Positions 13,258-38,659 of a stretch of DNA of 41,039 nucleotides are shown piece by piece. The notes beneath the pieces were generated by a model, which ran no database searches, was not told where the DNA came from, and worked only from the letters and a program-made list of their open reading frames with translations. Numbering within the stretch: the first letter of the stretch is position 1; each line of letters starts with the position of its first letter. Position numbers and translations under genes: made by a program. Source of the stretch: a phage; sequence record NC_093712.1; one strand, given 5' to 3'.

Positions 13258-13362
13258 GTTTCTCCTTTCTCGATAAGTAAAGCCCCGCCATAAAGCGGGG
13301 CGCTAGTCCTCATCATTTAAACATAGAAACGGCGTAATCTCAGTAAACCAGTTACTTTTTAC

Positions 13363-13522
13363 ACAAGCAATAGAGTATGGCCCTTCCGAACGCGTCAGCG
13401 TAACTACACTCAGGACTTACGTCCCGCTCCGTTACCTGCCCGCGCCGCGGTCGCTTGTTCATACTTCACAAGCTCAGGTGGAGCTTAGCACATTTTCAGT
13501 GAAAAGTCAACTATTCGAATAG
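13363..13522 (-). promoter_or_regulatory. conserved promoter plus structured leader element, copy 1 (TTGACT-17-TGnTAAGCT promoter at 13510..13482, then conserved hairpins)
   Basis: ~145 nt shared with 24338-24482 (blocks TATGGCCCTTCCGAAYGCGTCAGCG, CGGTCGCTTGTTCATACTTCACAAGCTCAGG, GAGCTTA, AAAAGTCAA); no conserved ORF; followed by hairpin GCGCCCCGC/GCGGGGC (13281-13305) before spanin RBS. Confidence 0.5.
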
Positions 13523-13572: not shown

Positions 13573-13606
13573 CTAAAAAGCCCCTTTCGGGGCTTAAGTT
13601 TATTCT
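13573..13606. terminator. rho-independent terminator (bidirectional)
   Basis: AAGCCCC-TTTC-GGGGCTT hairpin with flanking T/A runs; just past stop of gene 13600..14061. Confidence 0.7.
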
Positions 13607-20265: not shown

Positions 20266-20855
20266 TCATTTAACCGCCCTACCGATAGCCTCAGCCTCTT
20301 GCCACGGTTTACCGTCGAACAGCGCCAGACGCCCGGCTGTACGGCGACGCAGGCCAAGTAGTGGTTTGCCGTTCTGGTTGATGAACAGCGCCAGCTTGGC
20401 CCGCAGCGTCGCAGTATCACCGGAACGCAGTGCCTTACCCGTGCCGGTAGTAGCTGCAATCACACCGGCACCAGCGTTATACACCAGGTCGCACATTGCA
20501 CGAACCCCTTCATGAAGGTGGGGGACGGAACGCAGTGCCTACCCGTGCCGGTAGTAGCTGCAATCACACCGGCACCAGCGTTATACACCAGGTCGCACAC
20601 TGCATCGAACTGCGCCTGTGTCAATGAATGGTGTGCTGCCGCATCGACCGCGGCCACGGCCTTAGCCATATCGCGATTCAGTAACAGGAGGCCTTGTCCT
20701 GGGGTGATGGTCTTGCCTGGAGTCACGTCCGGCCCGTAGTGCCCGTACCCAATAGTCAGGTACTTCTCGTTCGGCGTAGCGCGATACGCAGTTCCGCGGA
20801 ATCCCTCGAACGCGGCACAGAAATGCAATCCATTATCTGAAATATTTCGAGACAT
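20266..20855 (-). pseudogene. endolysin (GH24 phage lysozyme) with reading frame interrupted by 105-bp imperfect tandem duplication
   Basis: N-part (20460..20855) has lysozyme motif FEGFRGTAYRATPNEKYLTIGYGHYG; C-part (20266..20496) continues in another frame; both fragments contain CDLVYNAGAGVIAATTGTG encoded by the duplicated DNA. Confidence 0.7.
20421..20599. repeat. imperfect tandem direct repeat (2 copies, period 105 bp) with palindrome CCTTCATGAAGG at junction
   Basis: 20421-20495 and 20526-20599 are identical except a 1-nt indel; similarity extends ~10 nt further; 12-bp perfect palindrome at 20507-20518 between copies. Confidence 0.8.
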
Positions 20856-23946: not shown

Positions 23947-24125
23947 TTCGCCCCTTTGAATTTAAAATTGTTGCCGATGAGTTCTAAATTATCGTGACGA
24001 ACATAACCATGTTTCCTCCGTATAAGGCTAAATACGGCGACAACACCATATTCATCCTCGTCTTTGGTAGCTATTACGTGTTGCCGGCTGCGCTTTGTTT
24101 TTGCCAACTGACCATTCTTAAACAT
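23943..24125 (-). CDS. hypothetical small basic protein (60 aa)
   Basis: ATG at 24125 preceded by AGGAG (track start 24134 is GTG); first gene downstream of promoter at 24188..24153. Confidence 0.45.
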   Translation of the reverse strand: MFKNGQLAKTKRSRQHVIATKDEDEYGVVAVFSLIRRKHGYVRHDNLELIGNNFKFKGAK

Positions 24126-24152
24126 AACCCTCACTCCTCTGTCTCGTTTCGA

Positions 24153-24188
24153 TAAGTGAATAGTATCCTATTATGTTGGGGTGTGCAA
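24153..24188 (-). promoter_or_regulatory. early-left promoter (TTGCAC-17-TACTAT) with operator AATAG-N4-CTATT (24159-24172)
   Basis: Conserved motif; -35 at 24188..24183, -10 at 24165..24160; RBS and ATG follow ~30 nt downstream on minus strand. Confidence 0.5.
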
Positions 24189-24337
24189 GAGATTAGTTAC
24201 GTTGCCGTTGTGATTCTTTTGTTTAATGGGGTAGCGAGCGAAACGAACGTGGTGCCGGAGGCACCAAGAGTGAGTGAGTGAGCTTGCGGTTCTGACCTAC
24301 GGCAAATCAATAACTTAGATATTTAGGCGGGGAATTA

Positions 24338-24482
24338 TAATAGACTATGGCCCTTCCGAATGCGTCAGCGAGGCTCACTCCACACGTCGAGACGTGCTCG
24401 TTTCGCCTGCCGCGCACCGCGGTCGCTTGTTCATACTTCACAAGCTCAGGACGAGCTTACCATATTTCTCAGTAAAAGTCAA
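24338..24482 (-). promoter_or_regulatory. conserved promoter plus structured leader element, copy 2 (TTGACT-17-TGnTAAGCT at 24482..24454)
   Basis: Near-identical blocks to 13363-13522; hairpin CACGTC-GA-GACGTG (24373-24386) replaces GGAC-TTAC-GTCC of copy 1 at the same relative position; perfect TATAAT on plus strand at 24336-24341 is an alternative reading. Confidence 0.5.
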
Positions 24483-24589
24483 TACCAGTAGCATCTTTTG
24501 CATCTTAGTAACTTTGTGTGGTGTTTTGGTTGCTTTTACATTCCCGCTATCCTATACTCGGTTCCACCAAACAAACAGGAGATATGAAA

Positions 24590-24772
24590 ATGCCGCATTA
24601 CATGACACAGAATGAAGTAGCTGAACGTATCGGGGTGACACGTCAGACAATTAATAACTGGCTGCGCAGTGGTAAATTCCCGGATTGCTGTATTAAGGTT
24701 ATGGGTCGCCGTTTACCGGGAACATTCGACCGTAATAAAGTTGAAGCATGGATTAAGGAGAACGTGAAATGA
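24590..24772 (+). CDS. small HTH DNA-binding protein (AlpA/excisionase-like HTH)
   Basis: ATG at 24590 with AGGAG RBS (track ORF starts upstream at 24518); MTQNEVAERIGVTRQTINNWLRSGKFP is a typical HTH_17-type motif. Confidence 0.6.
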   Translation: MPHYMTQNEVAERIGVTRQTINNWLRSGKFPDCCIKVMGRRLPGTFDRNKVEAWIKENVK

Positions 24773-27689: not shown

Positions 27690-27762
27690 TTGATATGTGA
27701 ATAGTACCATATTAATTATTTTAGAAAAGCCCATTGACAAGTGAATAGTTCGCTATTATAGT
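27690..27762 (+). promoter_or_regulatory. tandem early-right promoters (TTGATA-17-TAATTA and TTGACA-17-TATAGT), each with operator AATAG-N4-(C/A)TATT in the spacer; overlaps divergent -10 TATAAT for the XRE gene
   Basis: Operators at 27700-27713 and 27744-27757; minus-strand TATAAT at 27760..27755. Confidence 0.55.
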
Positions 27763-27793
27763 TAGCCCATACCAAACGAGAGGAGAGAAACAA

Positions 27794-30301: not shown

Positions 30302-30330
30302 GTTGACACCTGAATAGTAAGCTATTATAG
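30302..30330 (+). promoter_or_regulatory. promoter TTGACA-17-TATAGT with operator AATAG-N4-CTATT (30312-30325)
   Basis: Perfect -35, operator in spacer; upstream of SSB-like gene. Confidence 0.55.
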
Positions 30331-30386
30331 TTCTAATCACTGGCCGGGCAGCTTCCCCGGAGTAAACTTAAAAGCGAGAAATCACG

Positions 30387-33609: not shown

Positions 33610-33890
33610 CACCGGAAGGCAAAATACAGAAATACGCAAAAGAGCGATTCGAGGCCATCGGCGGCCTCGTTCGTAAGCTCTCCTACGAGGGGCGCTCCGG
33701 CGCTCCCGACCTGCTGGTAATTCTCCCCGGCGGCATAGTCTGGTTCGTCGAGGTGAAGAAAGACGAAAACACGAAGCCGGACCCGCACCAGATACGTGAG
33801 CACGAGCGGATGCGTAAACGTGGTGCGAATGTTTTTGTCGTTGGTTCGTTTAAACAGGTTGACGACCTAATAGCGAGCTATTATAGTTAA
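33606..33890 (+). CDS. VRR-NUC domain nuclease
   Basis: PD-(D/E)XK-type signature GAPDLLVIL...VWFVEVKK; ATG at 33606 is ATGA-coupled (track start 33591 is TTG). Confidence 0.7.
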   Translation: MTPEGKIQKYAKERFEAIGGLVRKLSYEGRSGAPDLLVILPGGIVWFVEVKKDENTKPDPHQIREHERMRKRGANVFVVGSFKQVDDLIASYYS

Positions 33891-35710: not shown

Positions 35711-38659
35711 ATCTTCTAGTGCTGCCAGCCTCTTCTCGAACTCGCGCATCTTCTTACGCTGATAGGCAATCTCTATGAAGAACATCTGGTCCGCCCTAAC
35801 CCCCCATCTGCCGCCGGGAGGGGATACTTGTACAGTCTGGCCATCTTCATCAATATCATACGCAGCTTCAATTGAGTCGTAGCACAAGAAAGCATATTTA
35901 CACTCGGTAGAATCTTTCTCCATAAGCCCATGGTTGACCAAGATGTCTCGCACATCTTGGGCTATCACACCGAAGTGTATCCTTGCAGTGTCACCCTTGA
36001 TTGCTAGGCTTTCAAGCCACTTAAAAGATATTACATGTATATCCTCCCATGCGGTAAGGAGTTGTCCCTCAATTTCCTCTTTGTTCGTCTTAAGTGTACC
36101 ATCAGACGTGTTTATCGTACCGGTGGCCGCGTACACCGTAGTCCACCTATTACCTGCCGAACCTAAAGACACTTTCGAGTCTAAGTAAGGAAGAAAATTG
36201 TTGTATGAGTAGAAGCCTCCTGACGCATACATAATAGCCCTGTTAGGCTTTGCATGGTTTGCCCCGTACAGTTGCAGCAACGCACCATCGGAACTGGATG
36301 CACCATCACCACCGCTAACTATCAGTCTTTGACCCGATGGGGTTTTAGTGGGGACTGTTTTTGAAATCAGCCCGTAATCACCATCAAACCGTGCGCGCAC
36401 GGCAGACTGTTGTGTACCATCGTATTCCAGCCCCGTTACATGCAGGGAGTACACGCTTACATCATTGTCAAACGTTAAAGGTGCTTCTACATGGCGTACA
36501 CCATCTACCCCCATGGCGACAGGTATTGTACGGTTAGGAGTTGCTCCGTATTTGAAATCACGTGATACGTACGGGTGGTCTTCAATCTTTATCCGGTAGC
36601 TATATAAGTCAGCCGGATGCCCATCATGTTTGTACCATAACCTCGCACTGTTATCCCCTATGCTCCAGGGAGAGAAGAAGTCTTCCCCACCAAAGATATA
36701 GTACAACCAGCCATCTTTAACACAGACCGAGCCGACGCCGACAGCAGTGTTAACGATATGACCCTGGTATATTTGGTCGGTAATATTAAACCACTGAACA
36801 TCATCTAAAGATGAAGGCCAGGACGACACATTAACTTTGCACATAAAGGTCCTCGGATACGAACCTTCATAGCGGCTGTCCTGCTCGCCACCTTCCCACT
36901 CACCAAAGGCACGTTCTGTACCAAAGATGTATAGATAGTCACCTACTTTAGCGAACGGAAGATTGGAGTGATGTACATTGTCCGGAAATCGCAAGTAGCT
37001 CCAGTTTTGCCCAGAATCGGTGCTCATCGCCAGTGTAGAGCCAGGGGAAGTAGGTAATGTGCCGCGTGTGGTAAGGTATAACACACCACCATAACTTTTC
37101 ACGCACGGCTCAGAAGCGTTGTCAGCGTATGCCTGAGCGACAGTGCGACGAACGAATACGCCAGGATTGTCATACACGTTACTAAAATACAAGACACCGA
37201 GACGCCTAGGGGACACATCGCCGTTGTGATAGCCGACAGCGATAGTGTAGTTAACATCATCTATAACCGCAAAACTATGTGTCTCCGTGACACACAAATC
37301 AGCGTTAGTGGAGTATGCTACCCCAGGCAATTCGGTAATTTCCCACGGGCTGTCCCAGAATCGCGTTGCGAAGTTCCAGGTAACACCCGCATTGTTTATG
37401 GTGGAACTCGCCGGGCTTGAGAGCGTAACAGTGAACGTATTTCGGTTAATTATAGACGAAACCGTCATATTACCCGATACGCCAGTTGCCGATGTATTAG
37501 AGAAGTTAACCGCATCTCCTGCTTTTAGGCCATGATTTTCTATGACAATGGTAGCAGTAGTGGAGCCAGAACTAATAGTTATTCCGCCGGTTGGGTGTCT
37601 AAAATACGGCATTGGGCGTGACCAAAGTTCTGCCTTCTTCATCCGCATATTAGATAAGTAGCGGGTTTCTATAACGGCATATAATCGGTTGCCGCACGTA
37701 CCCATGCTCATGCAGTGGTAGTTAACTCTGTCCGTAGAAACACTAGCATTATAGTCAGCATGGATTGGAGTCAACCATTCAGGCATTGACCAAGTCTGCC
37801 CGTCGTCTCCAGAGCGAACCCAAGCTACATGTAAGTTTTGAACACCATGTCGTTCGCCCGCCATAAACGGGGCGTAAATAACATGGTCGTAGACGAAAGT
37901 TTTATCCTGCGTCCATGCGTTGTAGAACGGGGTATCCGTCACCTTAGTTAGTGAGCCGTTAAAGAAGCCATCAGCTACATAAGTAAGCGGTTGCCCGGCT
38001 ACGCGCTCGTAAACGAATGCAGCATTCTTAAATTTACTAATGTCAGGTAATTGGGAAACTTTATAAGTCAAACCCCTGCCGTCTATAATCCAATTGTTGA
38101 GGGAAGCTGCTAATACATTAAAAATAGATTGAGTATCATCAGTTACGCCGTCGCCCACGGCGCCCCATGCGCGCGGGTCGTATTCGTCCTTCCATCGCGC
38201 CACATGTAAATCTGGGTACAGAATTGCACCGTTTACATCAGATATTTGCTGCCGCAGTATGACCGACCCGACAGGCTGCCACGCCCCATCTGCCACGCCA
38301 CCGGTGGACTGCGGAGAAGATGACGCTGGGATAATTTTTGGTAGAGCACCCAACCAATAGTACCAATCCCCGTCACCGCCAGAGGACGACGGCCACAAAA
38401 CTGCGGTGTTTCGGTCGTTAGCGGATAGTGTACCGCCTGACGTGAAATCAAAATCTGCCAGTTTAAAACCAGCATCACGCAACACGGCAGGTAACGTCTT
38501 CTGGGTCTGTCCAGTAACCTGATTTGTCGCGTAATCAATATCGGCACCACCGGCGACACCGCCGGATTTGCCAGTGATAACCTCGGCCTCGAAAATCTGA
38601 TGTTTCTTGGCGGTTTGTAAATCCGCCAGGCTTAAAACGTCACCGCATCCGCTTGACAT
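35705..38659 (-). CDS. tailspike: sialidase-fold depolymerase (endosialidase-like) with C-terminal intramolecular chaperone domain
   Basis: 984 aa; two Asp-boxes SGDDGQTW and STDSGQNW; C-terminal TINTSDGTLKTNKEEI...FKWLE resembles the self-cleaving chaperone domain of K1-phage endosialidases and T5 L-shaped fibre (recalled). Confidence 0.6.
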   Translation of the reverse strand: MSSGCGDVLSLADLQTAKKHQIFEAEVITGKSGGVAGGADIDYATNQVTGQTQKTLPAVLRDAGFKLADFDFTSGGTLSANDRNTAVLWPSSSGGDGDWYYWLGALPKIIPASSSPQSTGGVADGAWQPVGSVILRQQISDVNGAILYPDLHVARWKDEYDPRAWGAVGDGVTDDTQSIFNVLAASLNNWIIDGRGLTYKVSQLPDISKFKNAAFVYERVAGQPLTYVADGFFNGSLTKVTDTPFYNAWTQDKTFVYDHVIYAPFMAGERHGVQNLHVAWVRSGDDGQTWSMPEWLTPIHADYNASVSTDRVNYHCMSMGTCGNRLYAVIETRYLSNMRMKKAELWSRPMPYFRHPTGGITISSGSTTATIVIENHGLKAGDAVNFSNTSATGVSGNMTVSSIINRNTFTVTLSSPASSTINNAGVTWNFATRFWDSPWEITELPGVAYSTNADLCVTETHSFAVIDDVNYTIAVGYHNGDVSPRRLGVLYFSNVYDNPGVFVRRTVAQAYADNASEPCVKSYGGVLYLTTRGTLPTSPGSTLAMSTDSGQNWSYLRFPDNVHHSNLPFAKVGDYLYIFGTERAFGEWEGGEQDSRYEGSYPRTFMCKVNVSSWPSSLDDVQWFNITDQIYQGHIVNTAVGVGSVCVKDGWLYYIFGGEDFFSPWSIGDNSARLWYKHDGHPADLYSYRIKIEDHPYVSRDFKYGATPNRTIPVAMGVDGVRHVEAPLTFDNDVSVYSLHVTGLEYDGTQQSAVRARFDGDYGLISKTVPTKTPSGQRLIVSGGDGASSSDGALLQLYGANHAKPNRAIMYASGGFYSYNNFLPYLDSKVSLGSAGNRWTTVYAATGTINTSDGTLKTNKEEIEGQLLTAWEDIHVISFKWLESLAIKGDTARIHFGVIAQDVRDILVNHGLMEKDSTECKYAFLCYDSIEAAYDIDEDGQTVQVSPPGGRWGVRADQMFFIEIAYQRKKMREFEKRLAALEDK

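What the first reader, a model, noticed from the sequence alone, without database searches (positions are those of the whole stretch)
24338..24482. Duplicated promoter-plus-structured-leader element, copy 2, in the 455-bp gap between divergent early operons
Second copy of the element described at 13363-13522, lying in an unusually long noncoding gap (24126-24589). On the minus strand it is followed by hairpin GGTGCC-TCCG-GGCACC and then the operator-bearing early-left promoter. On the plus strand a perfect TATAAT (24336-24341) sits just before the conserved block, so plus-strand transcription into the replication operon is an alternative reading. Either way the element is likely a cis-acting RNA or regulatory DNA module controlling a major operon.
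Basis: partly seen in the sequence, partly recalled or inferred. Interest (0 to 1): 0.75.

Follow-up and report, generated by a model that had tools for sequence, protein, structure and literature searches.

The report
Duplicated promoter plus structured leader RNA
This phage carries two copies of a host-type promoter fused to a conserved, two-hairpin leader RNA at the heads of its two big leftward operons; the RNA family is undescribed, is found in roughly 450 related phage genomes, and probably helps RNA polymerase read past terminators.

Summary
The window is a Kagunavirus (Guernseyvirinae) genome with exactly two copies of the element: 13375-13510 and 24345-24482.

It reads on the minus strand. 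Each copy has a sigma-70 promoter (TTGACT, 17 bp, TGnTAAGCT). Its transcript starts with a short hairpin (H1) followed by a 67-nt irregular hairpin (H2) and the tail AAGGGCC.

- **Structure:** in 36 distinct homologues 95.6% of pair cells are paired and 7 pairs show compensatory changes. G.U outnumbers A.C 109 to 8, which fixes the strand.
- **Plus-strand reading:** not supported.
- **Not coding:** the internal ORF is broken by frameshifts.
- **Known families:** no match in Rfam, in 5,426 E. coli genomes, or to HK022 put.
- **Distribution:** the copy upstream of the spanin, scaffold and capsid genes occurs throughout Guernseyvirinae (180 plus 269 records). Its RNA core is 100% identical where the adjacent gene is 74% identical. 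The early-operon copy was found only in Kagunavirus-type genomes.
- **Downstream:** a GC hairpin follows at +174 to +195, and strong terminators lie inside the operons. No N- or Q-like protein was found.

Best guess, inferred only: a cis-acting, put-like antitermination leader. Rivals are a processing or stability leader and a roughly 200-nt small RNA.

The parts
24454..24482 (-). Copy 2 sigma-70 promoter: -35 TTGACT (24482-24477), 17-bp spacer, extended -10 TGG+TAAGCT (24462-24454). Predicted start at about 24447.
   Evidence: Read directly from the sequence. The hexamers and the TG are fixed while the spacer varies in 32 distinct homologous upstream regions. The same site is annotated as a predicted host promoter in the fBC-Eco01 record.
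24425..24445 (-). Copy 2 hairpin H1: GCUUGU-GAAGUAUGA-ACAAGC, starting 2 nt from the predicted 5' end.
   Evidence: Found in the minimum-energy fold of every variant. All H1 cells are paired; the only variant is U-A to U.G, which pairs only on the minus strand. Type F has an 8-bp stem with a GAUA loop.
24356..24422 (-). Copy 2 hairpin H2: a 67-nt irregular hairpin. Base CCG/CGG, helix GGUGCG/CGCAUU, middle helix, conserved internal loops, variable tip hairpin.
   Evidence: Covariance model match at 88 bits. Compensatory changes occur in the H2 helices; for example pair 32-95 is C-G in 24, U-A in 8 and A-U in 2 sequences, and four pairs of the tip helix change on both sides.
24345..24355 (-). 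Copy 2 conserved single-stranded tail AAGGGCCAUAG.
   Evidence: UUCGGAAGGGCC is kept in nearly all types, including the distant SETP3 type; type E reads UUUGGGAGGCCC.
24267..24344 (-). Copy 2 spacer, partly similar to the copy 1 spacer. It contains a (CUCA)n C-rich run at 24282-24268.
   Evidence: Alignments. The repeat number varies between phages (L044).
24250..24266 (-). Copy 2 downstream GC hairpin UGGUGCC-UCC-GGCACCA at +181, followed by the weak U tract CGUUCGUUUC.
   Evidence: Other copy-2 lineages carry a different hairpin, GGGGUGGGC-UAAC-GCCCACCCC, at the same place.
24149..24188 (.). Operator-type palindrome AATAGTATCCTATT inside a plus-oriented member of the D1 promoter family (24149-24178). 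A minus-strand promoter-like site TTGCAC-17-TACTAT (24188-24160) overlaps it, just upstream of the first leftward gene (ATG at 24125).
   Evidence: Repeat family D1. The site is conserved in all real copy-2 loci aligned. The consensus was reported in PMC9825357.
13482..13510 (-). Copy 1 sigma-70 promoter: -35 TTGACT (13510-13505), extended -10 TGC+TAAGCT (13490-13482). Predicted start at about 13475.
13375..13475 (-). Copy 1 leader RNA core: H1, H2 and tail, 101 nt.
   Evidence: Covariance model match at 125 bits. It is 100% identical in Salmonella phage skrot, where the adjacent spanin gene is 74% identical.
13282..13301 (-). Copy 1 terminator-like hairpin GCCCCGC-UUUAUG-GCGGGGC followed by UUUACUUAU, at +174 and 12 nt ahead of the spanin ribosome-binding site.
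   Evidence: It is annotated as an ARNold terminator in fBC-Eco01. The compensatory variant GCCCUGC/GCAGGGC occurs in L019.
13576..13598 (.). Terminator hairpin ending the upstream leftward genes, just before the copy 1 promoter.
   Evidence: (family D4).

Best explanation
**Shown with high confidence (about 0.9).** Each copy is a module made of a sigma-70 promoter and the leader RNA it transcribes. It is read on the minus strand. The promoter is TTGACT, 17 bp, TGnTAAGCT. The transcript starts about 7 nt after the -10 hexamer. It folds at once into hairpin H1, then a GA linker, then the long irregular hairpin H2 with conserved internal loops, then the single-stranded tail AAGGGCC. A GC hairpin follows about 175-195 nt from the start, and then comes the first gene of a long leftward operon. 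Copy 2 heads the operon of small early genes, lysis genes, terminase and portal. Copy 1 heads the operon of spanin, scaffold, capsid and tail genes.

**Inferred (about 0.35).** The folded leader acts in cis on the RNA polymerase that made it. It would do this alone, as the put RNAs of phage HK022 do, or with a small unidentified factor. The polymerase would become resistant to pausing and termination, so it reads through the leader hairpin and the strong intrinsic terminators inside these operons. Because the module works on its own, it could be copied from the late operon to the early-left operon in Kagunavirus-type genomes.
For: **Promoter.** The -35, TG and -10 elements are invariant or nearly so, and the spacer and discriminator vary, across 32 distinct upstream sequences.

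**RNA structure and strand.**
- 95.6% of pair cells are paired, against 33-40% when partners are slid.
- 7 pairs and 50 cells change on both sides; 0 of 500 shuffles reach that cell count or the covariation score.
- G.U outnumbers A.C 109 to 8.
- Mean folding energy is -38.1 kcal/mol on the minus strand and -28.1 on the plus strand, with the same two-hairpin fold in almost every variant.

**Not coding.** The internal ORF ranges from 0 to 48 aa because of frameshifts and loss of the start codon.

**Selection.**
- The RNA core is 100% identical between this window and a Salmonella phage whose adjacent spanin gene is 74% identical.
- The type A copy is present in 180 phage records.
- A diverged SETP3 type with the same architecture sits at the same position in 269 more records.

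**Need for read-through.**
- A predicted terminator lies between the copy 1 promoter and its first gene.
- A strong terminator follows the capsid gene, GGGGC-UACG-GCCCC followed by UUUUU.
- Others lie at 15163-15148 and 13598-13576.

**No protein antiterminator found.**
- No N- or Q-like family appears among 20 early proteins or in the annotations of relatives.
- The two copies share the promoter and the RNA but no flanking DNA site, so the common function lies in the promoter and RNA.

**Parallels with put (PMC9378689).** Two copies per genome, RNA starting at the promoter, two stems, terminators downstream.
Against: - No transcript data exist for any of these phages, so the start site is only predicted.
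- The RNA has no sequence or model similarity to HK022 putL.
- The downstream hairpins of copy 2 and of the SETP3 type lack a good U tract, so they may not be terminators.
- Terminators after capsid genes are common in phages that have no dedicated antitermination system.
- Many small early proteins have unknown function, so a protein partner, or a quite different role, cannot be excluded.
- Folding z-scores for single sequences are unremarkable, -1.2 to -2.4.
Confidence: 0.35

Rival explanations
1. The leader controls mRNA processing, stability or translation. H2 would be a site for RNase III or for a protein, and H1 or the downstream GC hairpin would protect RNA ends. The module would then set the half-life or translation of the operon mRNA and would not act on the polymerase.
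For: - H2 is a long, irregular double-stranded hairpin with internal loops, the general shape of phage RNase III sites.
- H1 sits 2 nt from the predicted 5' end, and 5'-terminal hairpins are known to stabilise E. coli mRNAs (established knowledge).
- In copy 1 and the SETP3 type the GC hairpin lies 10-15 nt ahead of the ribosome-binding site and often lacks a U tract.
Against: - Processing sites and stabiliser hairpins rarely need sequence to be kept in loops and tails. Here the internal loops and UUCGGAAGGGCC are kept across types whose stems have changed.
- The 101-nt core is 100% identical across genera.
- This model does not explain how polymerase passes the terminators.
Confidence: 0.25
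2. A stand-alone small RNA of about 190-200 nt. It would be made from its own promoter, end at the GC hairpin, and act in trans on host or phage targets or on a host protein.
For: - Copy 1 has promoter, structured RNA and terminator-like hairpin in the right order, and the lengths are similar: about 195 nt in copy 1 and about 200 nt in copy 2.
- A second promoter-like site lies downstream of the hairpin in copy 2, at 24188-24160, and could drive the operon on its own.
- The conserved single-stranded segments could be seed regions.
Against: - The hairpins of copy 2 and the SETP3 type have poor U tracts.
- In copy 1 no promoter lies between the hairpin and the spanin gene, so the operon would lack a nearby promoter.
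- The module always sits at the head of an operon, in the same orientation as the operon.
- No similarity to host sequence was found.
Confidence: 0.2
3. A protein-dependent antitermination site. It would be nut-like, with a small phage protein binding H1 or H2, or Q/qut-like, with a factor loading at a promoter-proximal pause, as at the lambda late promoter PR'.
For: - The layout of promoter, about 190 nt, hairpin, then lysis and late genes mirrors lambda PR'-tR'.
- In the SETP3 type the -10 hexamer TACGCT is repeated 3 nt downstream. This is the kind of element that causes sigma-dependent pausing.
- H1 of type F carries a GNRA tetraloop.
- The first gene after copy 2 encodes a 60-aa protein with a basic N-terminus.
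Against: - There is no boxA.
- No N or Q family match was found.
- The promoter spacer, where lambda Q binds, is variable.
- The repeat in type A, TGAGCT, lacks the key A at position 2.
- Q-type systems do not need a conserved RNA fold.
Confidence: 0.1
4. A plus-strand transcript, either a leader of the rightward HTH and replication operon or an antisense RNA, or a purely DNA-level element such as an operator, origin or packaging site.
For: - TATAAT is present at 24336-24341.
- A plus-oriented D1-type promoter at 24149-24178 could transcribe across the element.
- The inverted repeat AAGCTC-N5-GAGCTT overlaps the -10 hexamer and the start.
Against: - On the plus strand 10.8% of pair cells become mismatches and only 0.8% are gained.
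- The plus-strand fold is 10 kcal/mol weaker.
- The TATAAT is not conserved and has no -35.
- Copy 1 has no plus-strand gene downstream.
- Compensatory changes that tolerate G.U indicate RNA rather than duplex DNA.
Confidence: 0.05

Closest known systems
HK022 put RNAs (putL, putR): cis-acting antiterminator RNAs that need no protein
   Same: Two related copies per genome. Each is encoded at the start of a major operon, and putL lies directly after its promoter. Both systems have a two-stem RNA, terminators downstream and no dedicated antiterminator protein identified (PMC9378689).
   Different: No sequence or covariance-model similarity. The RNA is about 95-100 nt with a short H1 and a long H2, against about 70 nt with two comparable stems. 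The host phages are virulent siphoviruses, not lambdoid temperate phages. One copy heads the late structural operon. Function is untested.
Lambda late regulatory region (PR', qut, 6S RNA, tR')
   Same: A constitutive-looking sigma-70 promoter, about 190 nt of untranslated RNA, then a terminator-like hairpin directly ahead of lysis and head genes.
   Different: No Q homologue was found. The promoter spacer is variable. A -10-like pause element is clear only in the SETP3 type. Here the RNA fold itself is under selection, which Q systems do not require.
Lambda/P22 nut sites with N protein
   Same: A promoter-proximal RNA hairpin element present in two copies, at the heads of the operons it would serve.
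   Different: No boxA. The H1 loop is 9 nt, not a GNRA-like pentaloop. No N-like protein was detected.
T7-type RNase III processing hairpins
   Same: An irregular hairpin of about 60-70 nt with internal loops in phage mRNA.
   Different: Those sites lie between genes and tolerate sequence change. This element is fused to a promoter and its loops and tail are conserved in sequence.

Membership tests
HK022 put RNA family | Sequence and structure homology to putL or putR | tested here: not met
   The covariance model built from this family finds nothing at HK022 putL (28.2-28.3 kb). Its only HK022 hit has E=0.46, lies at the PR' promoter and covers only H1.
HK022 put RNA family | Two-stem RNA encoded at or just after an operon promoter, two copies per genome | tested here: met
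HK022 put RNA family | Terminators downstream that are read through | tested here: inconclusive
   Terminator-like sites are present. Read-through cannot be measured here, and the copy 2 hairpin has a weak U tract.
HK022 put RNA family | Acts in cis by binding the RNA polymerase beta' zinc-binding domain, without protein factors | not testable with these tools
   Needs in vitro transcription or rpoC mutant hosts.
Lambda nut/N antitermination | boxA consensus (CGCUCUUA) upstream of a boxB hairpin | tested here: not met
   The best match in either leader has 2-3 mismatches in 8 positions, and it is at a different place in each copy.
Lambda nut/N antitermination | N-like arginine-rich protein encoded by the phage | tested here: inconclusive
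   No N family match among 20 early proteins. The 60-aa product of the first leftward gene has a mildly basic N-terminus.
Lambda Q/qut late antitermination | Q protein | tested here: inconclusive
   No Q family match and none in annotated relatives. Q families are diverse, and many early proteins are of unknown function.
Lambda Q/qut late antitermination | -10-like pause element in the initially transcribed region | tested here: inconclusive
   The SETP3 type has an exact repeat of its -10 hexamer, TACGCT-AAC-TACGCT. Types A-F have TGAGCT, which lacks A at position 2.
Any Rfam 15 family | Match to a curated covariance model | tested here: not met
   No hit at gathering score in the whole window. 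No hit at E up to 10 in 24100-24620. Only chance-level hits in related loci.
Trans-acting small RNA gene | Own promoter and Rho-independent terminator delimiting a short transcript | tested here: inconclusive
   The promoter criterion is met. The terminator is convincing for copy 1 and weak for copy 2 and the SETP3 type.
RfaH ops / JUMPStart leader | ops element GGCGGTAGCGTG in the leader | tested here: not met
   The best matches have 5 mismatches in 12 positions.

The most novel reading that the evidence does not exclude
The leader is a second, independently evolved class of RNA antiterminator that needs no protein. It would fold on the nascent transcript, bind host RNA polymerase and make it terminator-resistant. 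Virulent Guernseyvirinae phages would use it to drive late, and in Kagunavirus also early-left, gene expression without any N- or Q-type protein.
Probability: 0.25. Interest if true: 0.8.

Novelty: new variant of a known kind. Interest (0 to 1): 0.6.

Why it matters
**Where it occurs.** Kagunavirus and Jerseyvirus phages are isolated and sequenced by the hundred for therapy against E. coli and Salmonella. Their gene regulation is essentially unstudied. This element is their most conserved non-coding feature, yet it is unannotated, or mis-annotated as a 36-38 aa 'hypothetical protein'.

**If it acts like put.** It would be only the second kind of RNA known to reprogramme bacterial RNA polymerase without a protein partner. 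It would offer a compact, portable promoter-plus-antiterminator cassette for E. coli. It would also explain how these phages express capsid genes past strong terminators.

**If not.** It is still a new structured RNA family with clear covariation and a simple set of experiments to define it.

Tried and rejected
- **Rfam.** Searches of the window, the gap and related loci found nothing.
- **tRNA or tmRNA.** None.
- **Host origin.** No match in 5,426 complete E. coli genomes. A degenerate pattern scan of 100,044 bacterial species found only two true copies, both on small contigs that look like phage contamination.
- **Homology to HK022 put.** Rejected.
- **boxA and ops motifs.** Absent.
- **Protein-coding reading.** The ATG lies in the H1 loop, but the ORF length ranges from 0 to 48 aa.
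- **Pseudoknot between the H1 loop GUAUG and the tail CAUAC.** Supported by wobble changes within type A, but absent in types E, F and S, so not claimed.
- **Alternative small hairpin CCGC-GGC-GCGG in place of the long-range base of H2.** It is compatible with a few variants (L028, L033), but the consensus and the per-sequence folds favour the long hairpin.
- **Literature.** No description of the element and no usable transcript maps.
- **Metagenome scan.** It added few new variants.

Full report
**What the window is.** The 41-kb window is a near-complete genome of a Kagunavirus (subfamily Guernseyvirinae), a siphovirus of E. coli. It is 90-95% identical to phages G AB-2017, fKuEco01 and UTI89UKE1. 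Gene order matches annotated relatives. A long leftward block runs from 24125 down to about 7390. It holds small early genes, holins and endolysin, terminase, portal, head genes, spanins, scaffold, major capsid and tail genes. A rightward block starts at 24584 with an HTH protein, followed by primase-helicase and replication genes.

The alignment shows identical flanks around a diverged middle. A covariance model built later finds two and only two copies: 13475-13375 at 125 bits and 24447-24345 at 88 bits, both on the minus strand. Nothing else in the window exceeds 10 bits.

**A promoter on the minus strand.** The 3' conserved block of the plus strand is, on the minus strand, a sigma-70 promoter: TTGACT, 17 bp, TGn, TAAGCT.
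- Copy 2: -35 at 24482-24477 and -10 at 24459-24454.
- Copy 1: -35 at 13510-13505 and -10 at 13487-13482.

In 32 distinct homologous upstream sequences the two hexamers and the TG are fixed or nearly so. The spacer and the bases between -10 and the start vary. That is the pattern expected of a working promoter. The fBC-Eco01 record annotates the same site as a predicted host promoter. The predicted start is the G at 24447 in copy 2 and at 13475 in copy 1. No experimental mapping exists.

**The RNA fold.** From that start the RNA has four parts:
- H1: a 6-bp stem, GCUUGU/ACAAGC, with a 9-nt loop.
- A GA linker.
- H2: a hairpin of about 66 nt. It has the base CCG/CGG, a bulged C, a 6-bp helix beginning with two G.U pairs, a middle helix, asymmetric internal loops with conserved sequence (GGAGC opposite UGAGUGUAG in copy 1; CGAGC opposite UGGAGUGAG in copy 2), and a variable tip hairpin.
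- The tail AAGGGCCAUA.

This fold is the minimum-energy structure of almost every variant taken singly. The mean energy is -38.1 kcal/mol, against -28.1 for the reverse complement.

**Covariation.** I collected homologues from IMG/VR, metagenomes and GenBank phages and aligned 87 of them, 36 distinct, to the model.
- 95.6% of pair cells form standard pairs, against 33-40% when partners are slid by 1-3 columns.
- Seven pairs and 50 cells change on both sides. None of 500 column shuffles reaches that cell count or the covariation score.
- One pair in the lower helix is C-G in 24 sequences, U-A in 8 and A-U in 2.
- The middle helix reads GUAAC/GUUAC, GAAAC/GUUUC or GGAAC/GUUCC.
- The tip reads GGAC/GUCC, GUGC/GCAC, GGGC/GCCC, CACGU/ACGUG or GUGCC/GGCAC.

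The alignment was fitted to the model and the sequences are related, so these counts lean towards the structure. The independent single-sequence folds agree with it.

**Which strand.** G.U pairs make up 10.8% of cells and A.C only 0.8%, or 109 against 8. The rare H1 variants change U-A to U.G. The plus strand would therefore lose about a tenth of its pairs. The TATAAT at 24336-24341 exists, but it reads TACAAT or AACAAT in most relatives and has no -35. The plus-strand alternative is not supported.

**Not a gene.** Some records annotate a 36-38 aa 'hypothetical protein' across the element. Its ATG lies in the H1 loop. Among homologues the ORF is 0, 3, 9, 17, 19, 22, 32-36, 40-41 or 48 aa long, because of single-base indels and loss of the start codon.

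**Distribution.**
- The copy upstream of the Rz-like spanin, scaffold and capsid genes (copy 1, 'type A') is in 180 phage records: all the E. coli Kagunavirus phages and 65 Salmonella phages. Identity is at least 95% in 175 of them.
- Against Salmonella phage skrot the 101-nt RNA core is 100% identical, the promoter 94%, the spacer 94.5% and the hairpin plus ribosome-binding site 97.7%. The spanin gene next to it is 74% identical and the upstream DNA 80%.
- The remaining Jerseyvirus phages (269 records) carry a diverged version at the same position (SETP3 type; model score 34 bits, E about 1e-6). It has the same promoter design, TAGACT-17-TGnTACGCT, a short H1, the same H2 base ACCGCGGUGCG...CGCAUUCGGAAGGGCC, and different sequences in the middle and tip helices.
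- The second copy, at the head of the early-left operon, is found in Kagunavirus-type genomes. It comes in several sequence types (B, C, E, F). Type F is too diverged in H1 for BLAST but is found by the model and by a degenerate pattern.
- The Jerseyvirus SETP13 has only the late copy, and a different leader in its early-left gap.
- The family is absent from Rfam, from 5,426 complete E. coli genomes and from 100,044 bacterial species, apart from two small contigs that look like phage contamination.

**What lies downstream.** Every copy is followed by a GC-rich hairpin 174-195 nt from the predicted start.
- In copy 1 it is GCCCCGC-UUUAUG-GCGGGGC followed by UUUACUUAU, 12 nt before the spanin ribosome-binding site. 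ARNold predicts it as a terminator in fBC-Eco01. A compensatory variant, GCCCUGC/GCAGGGC, exists.
- In copy 2 it is UGGUGCC-UCC-GGCACCA with a weak U tract. Other lineages carry an unrelated hairpin at the same place.
- Within the operons there are clear minus-strand intrinsic terminators: after the portal gene (15163-15148), before the copy 1 promoter (13598-13576), after the capsid gene (GGGGC-UACG-GCCCC followed by UUUUU) and at the end of the block (7385-7366).
- No N- or Q-type antiterminator family is detected among 20 early proteins or in the annotation of relatives.

**Mechanism (inference).** The two copies share the promoter and the RNA but no flanking DNA site. Upstream of the -35, copy 1 has the palindrome CTATTCGAATAG and copy 2 has two AAGATGC repeats. 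The module has been moved between operons of different content. Across types its single-stranded loops and tail are conserved while its stems covary.

These features point to an autonomous cis-acting RNA recognised by a large partner. All transcripts from the copy 1 promoter must pass a terminator-like hairpin and then a strong terminator to express the most abundant virion proteins. The partner I think most likely is therefore the transcribing polymerase itself. This is the logic of the HK022 put RNAs: two copies, RNA starting at the promoter, two stems, terminators downstream and no protein (PMC9378689). I put this at about 0.35.

It is not a member of the put family, since there is no sequence or model similarity. 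It is not a nut site, since boxA is absent.

The rivals are these.
- A processing or stability leader (0.25). It fits the shape of H2 and the position of the hairpins, but fits the sequence-level conservation less well.
- A stand-alone RNA of about 200 nt (0.2). It fits copy 1's promoter-to-terminator layout and the second promoter-like site downstream of the copy 2 hairpin, but fits the weak U tracts and the constant head-of-operon position less well.
- A protein-dependent nut- or Q-like site (0.1).
- A plus-strand or DNA-level element (0.05).

**Verdict.** The element defines an undescribed structured leader RNA family found throughout Guernseyvirinae. What it is and which strand it is on are settled to the standard possible without wet data. 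What it does remains a hypothesis that a few simple transcription assays could decide.

Noticed in passing
window 24149-24178, 27690-27719, 27734-27763, 30303-30332, 33859-33888 (+): A family of plus-strand promoters, TTGACA-AGTGAATAGTnnnnCTAT-TATAGT, with an operator-like palindrome (AATAG-N4-CTATT) in the spacer. The fBC-Eco01 paper reports the same consensus as a 'phage promoter'. The 24149 member lies inside the copy 2 leader, points towards the element and has a degenerate -35.
   Followed up: partly
window 24160-24188 (-): A minus-strand promoter-like site, TTGCAC-17-TACTAT, overlaps the palindrome just upstream of the first leftward gene. It may be a second, repressible leftward promoter downstream of the leader.
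   Followed up: no
window 24268-24282 (minus strand CUCACUCACUCACUC): A C-rich tetranucleotide repeat between the leader core and the GC hairpin. Its copy number differs between phages (expanded in L044). It resembles a Rho utilisation site.
   Followed up: no
window 13511-13522 and 24488-24509: The two copies have different motifs upstream of the -35. Copy 1 has the perfect palindrome CTATTCGAATAG. Copy 2 has two AAGATGC direct repeats. This suggests different regulators for the same core promoter.
   Followed up: no
window 20436-20500 and 20540-20604: A 65-nt direct repeat, 98% identical and 104 nt apart, lies within the lysis-gene region.
   Followed up: no
L112 (SETP3) 495-520; L116-L125: In the SETP3-type leader the -10 hexamer TACGCT is repeated exactly 3 nt downstream (TACGCT-AAC-TACGCT), and the second copy forms the 5' arm of H1. 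This is a possible sigma-dependent pause element.
   Followed up: partly
L114 (St161) 380-520: Phage St161, close to Cornellvirus FSL SP-031, has a hairpin-rich leader with GUAA loops at the same position upstream of its spanin gene. It is not significantly similar to this family (model E=1.1). It may be a distant relative or an analogue.
   Followed up: partly
window 24300-24320 and 24505-24515; L110 (SETP13) 36030-36220: The motif AAGTTACT recurs in the early intergenic regions of Kagunavirus and Jerseyvirus, on both sides of the copy 2 promoter. It may be a regulator binding site.
   Followed up: no
L001 (fBC-Eco01) 1484-1600; several other records: GenBank records annotate a 36-38 aa 'hypothetical protein' across the leader RNA. 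The ORF is not conserved, so the annotation is probably spurious.
   Followed up: yes
L076 (HK022) 36892-36949: The model's only weak hit in HK022 (E=0.46) falls on the PR' late promoter, where a palindrome surrounds the -10 hexamer. I treated it as chance.
   Followed up: partly
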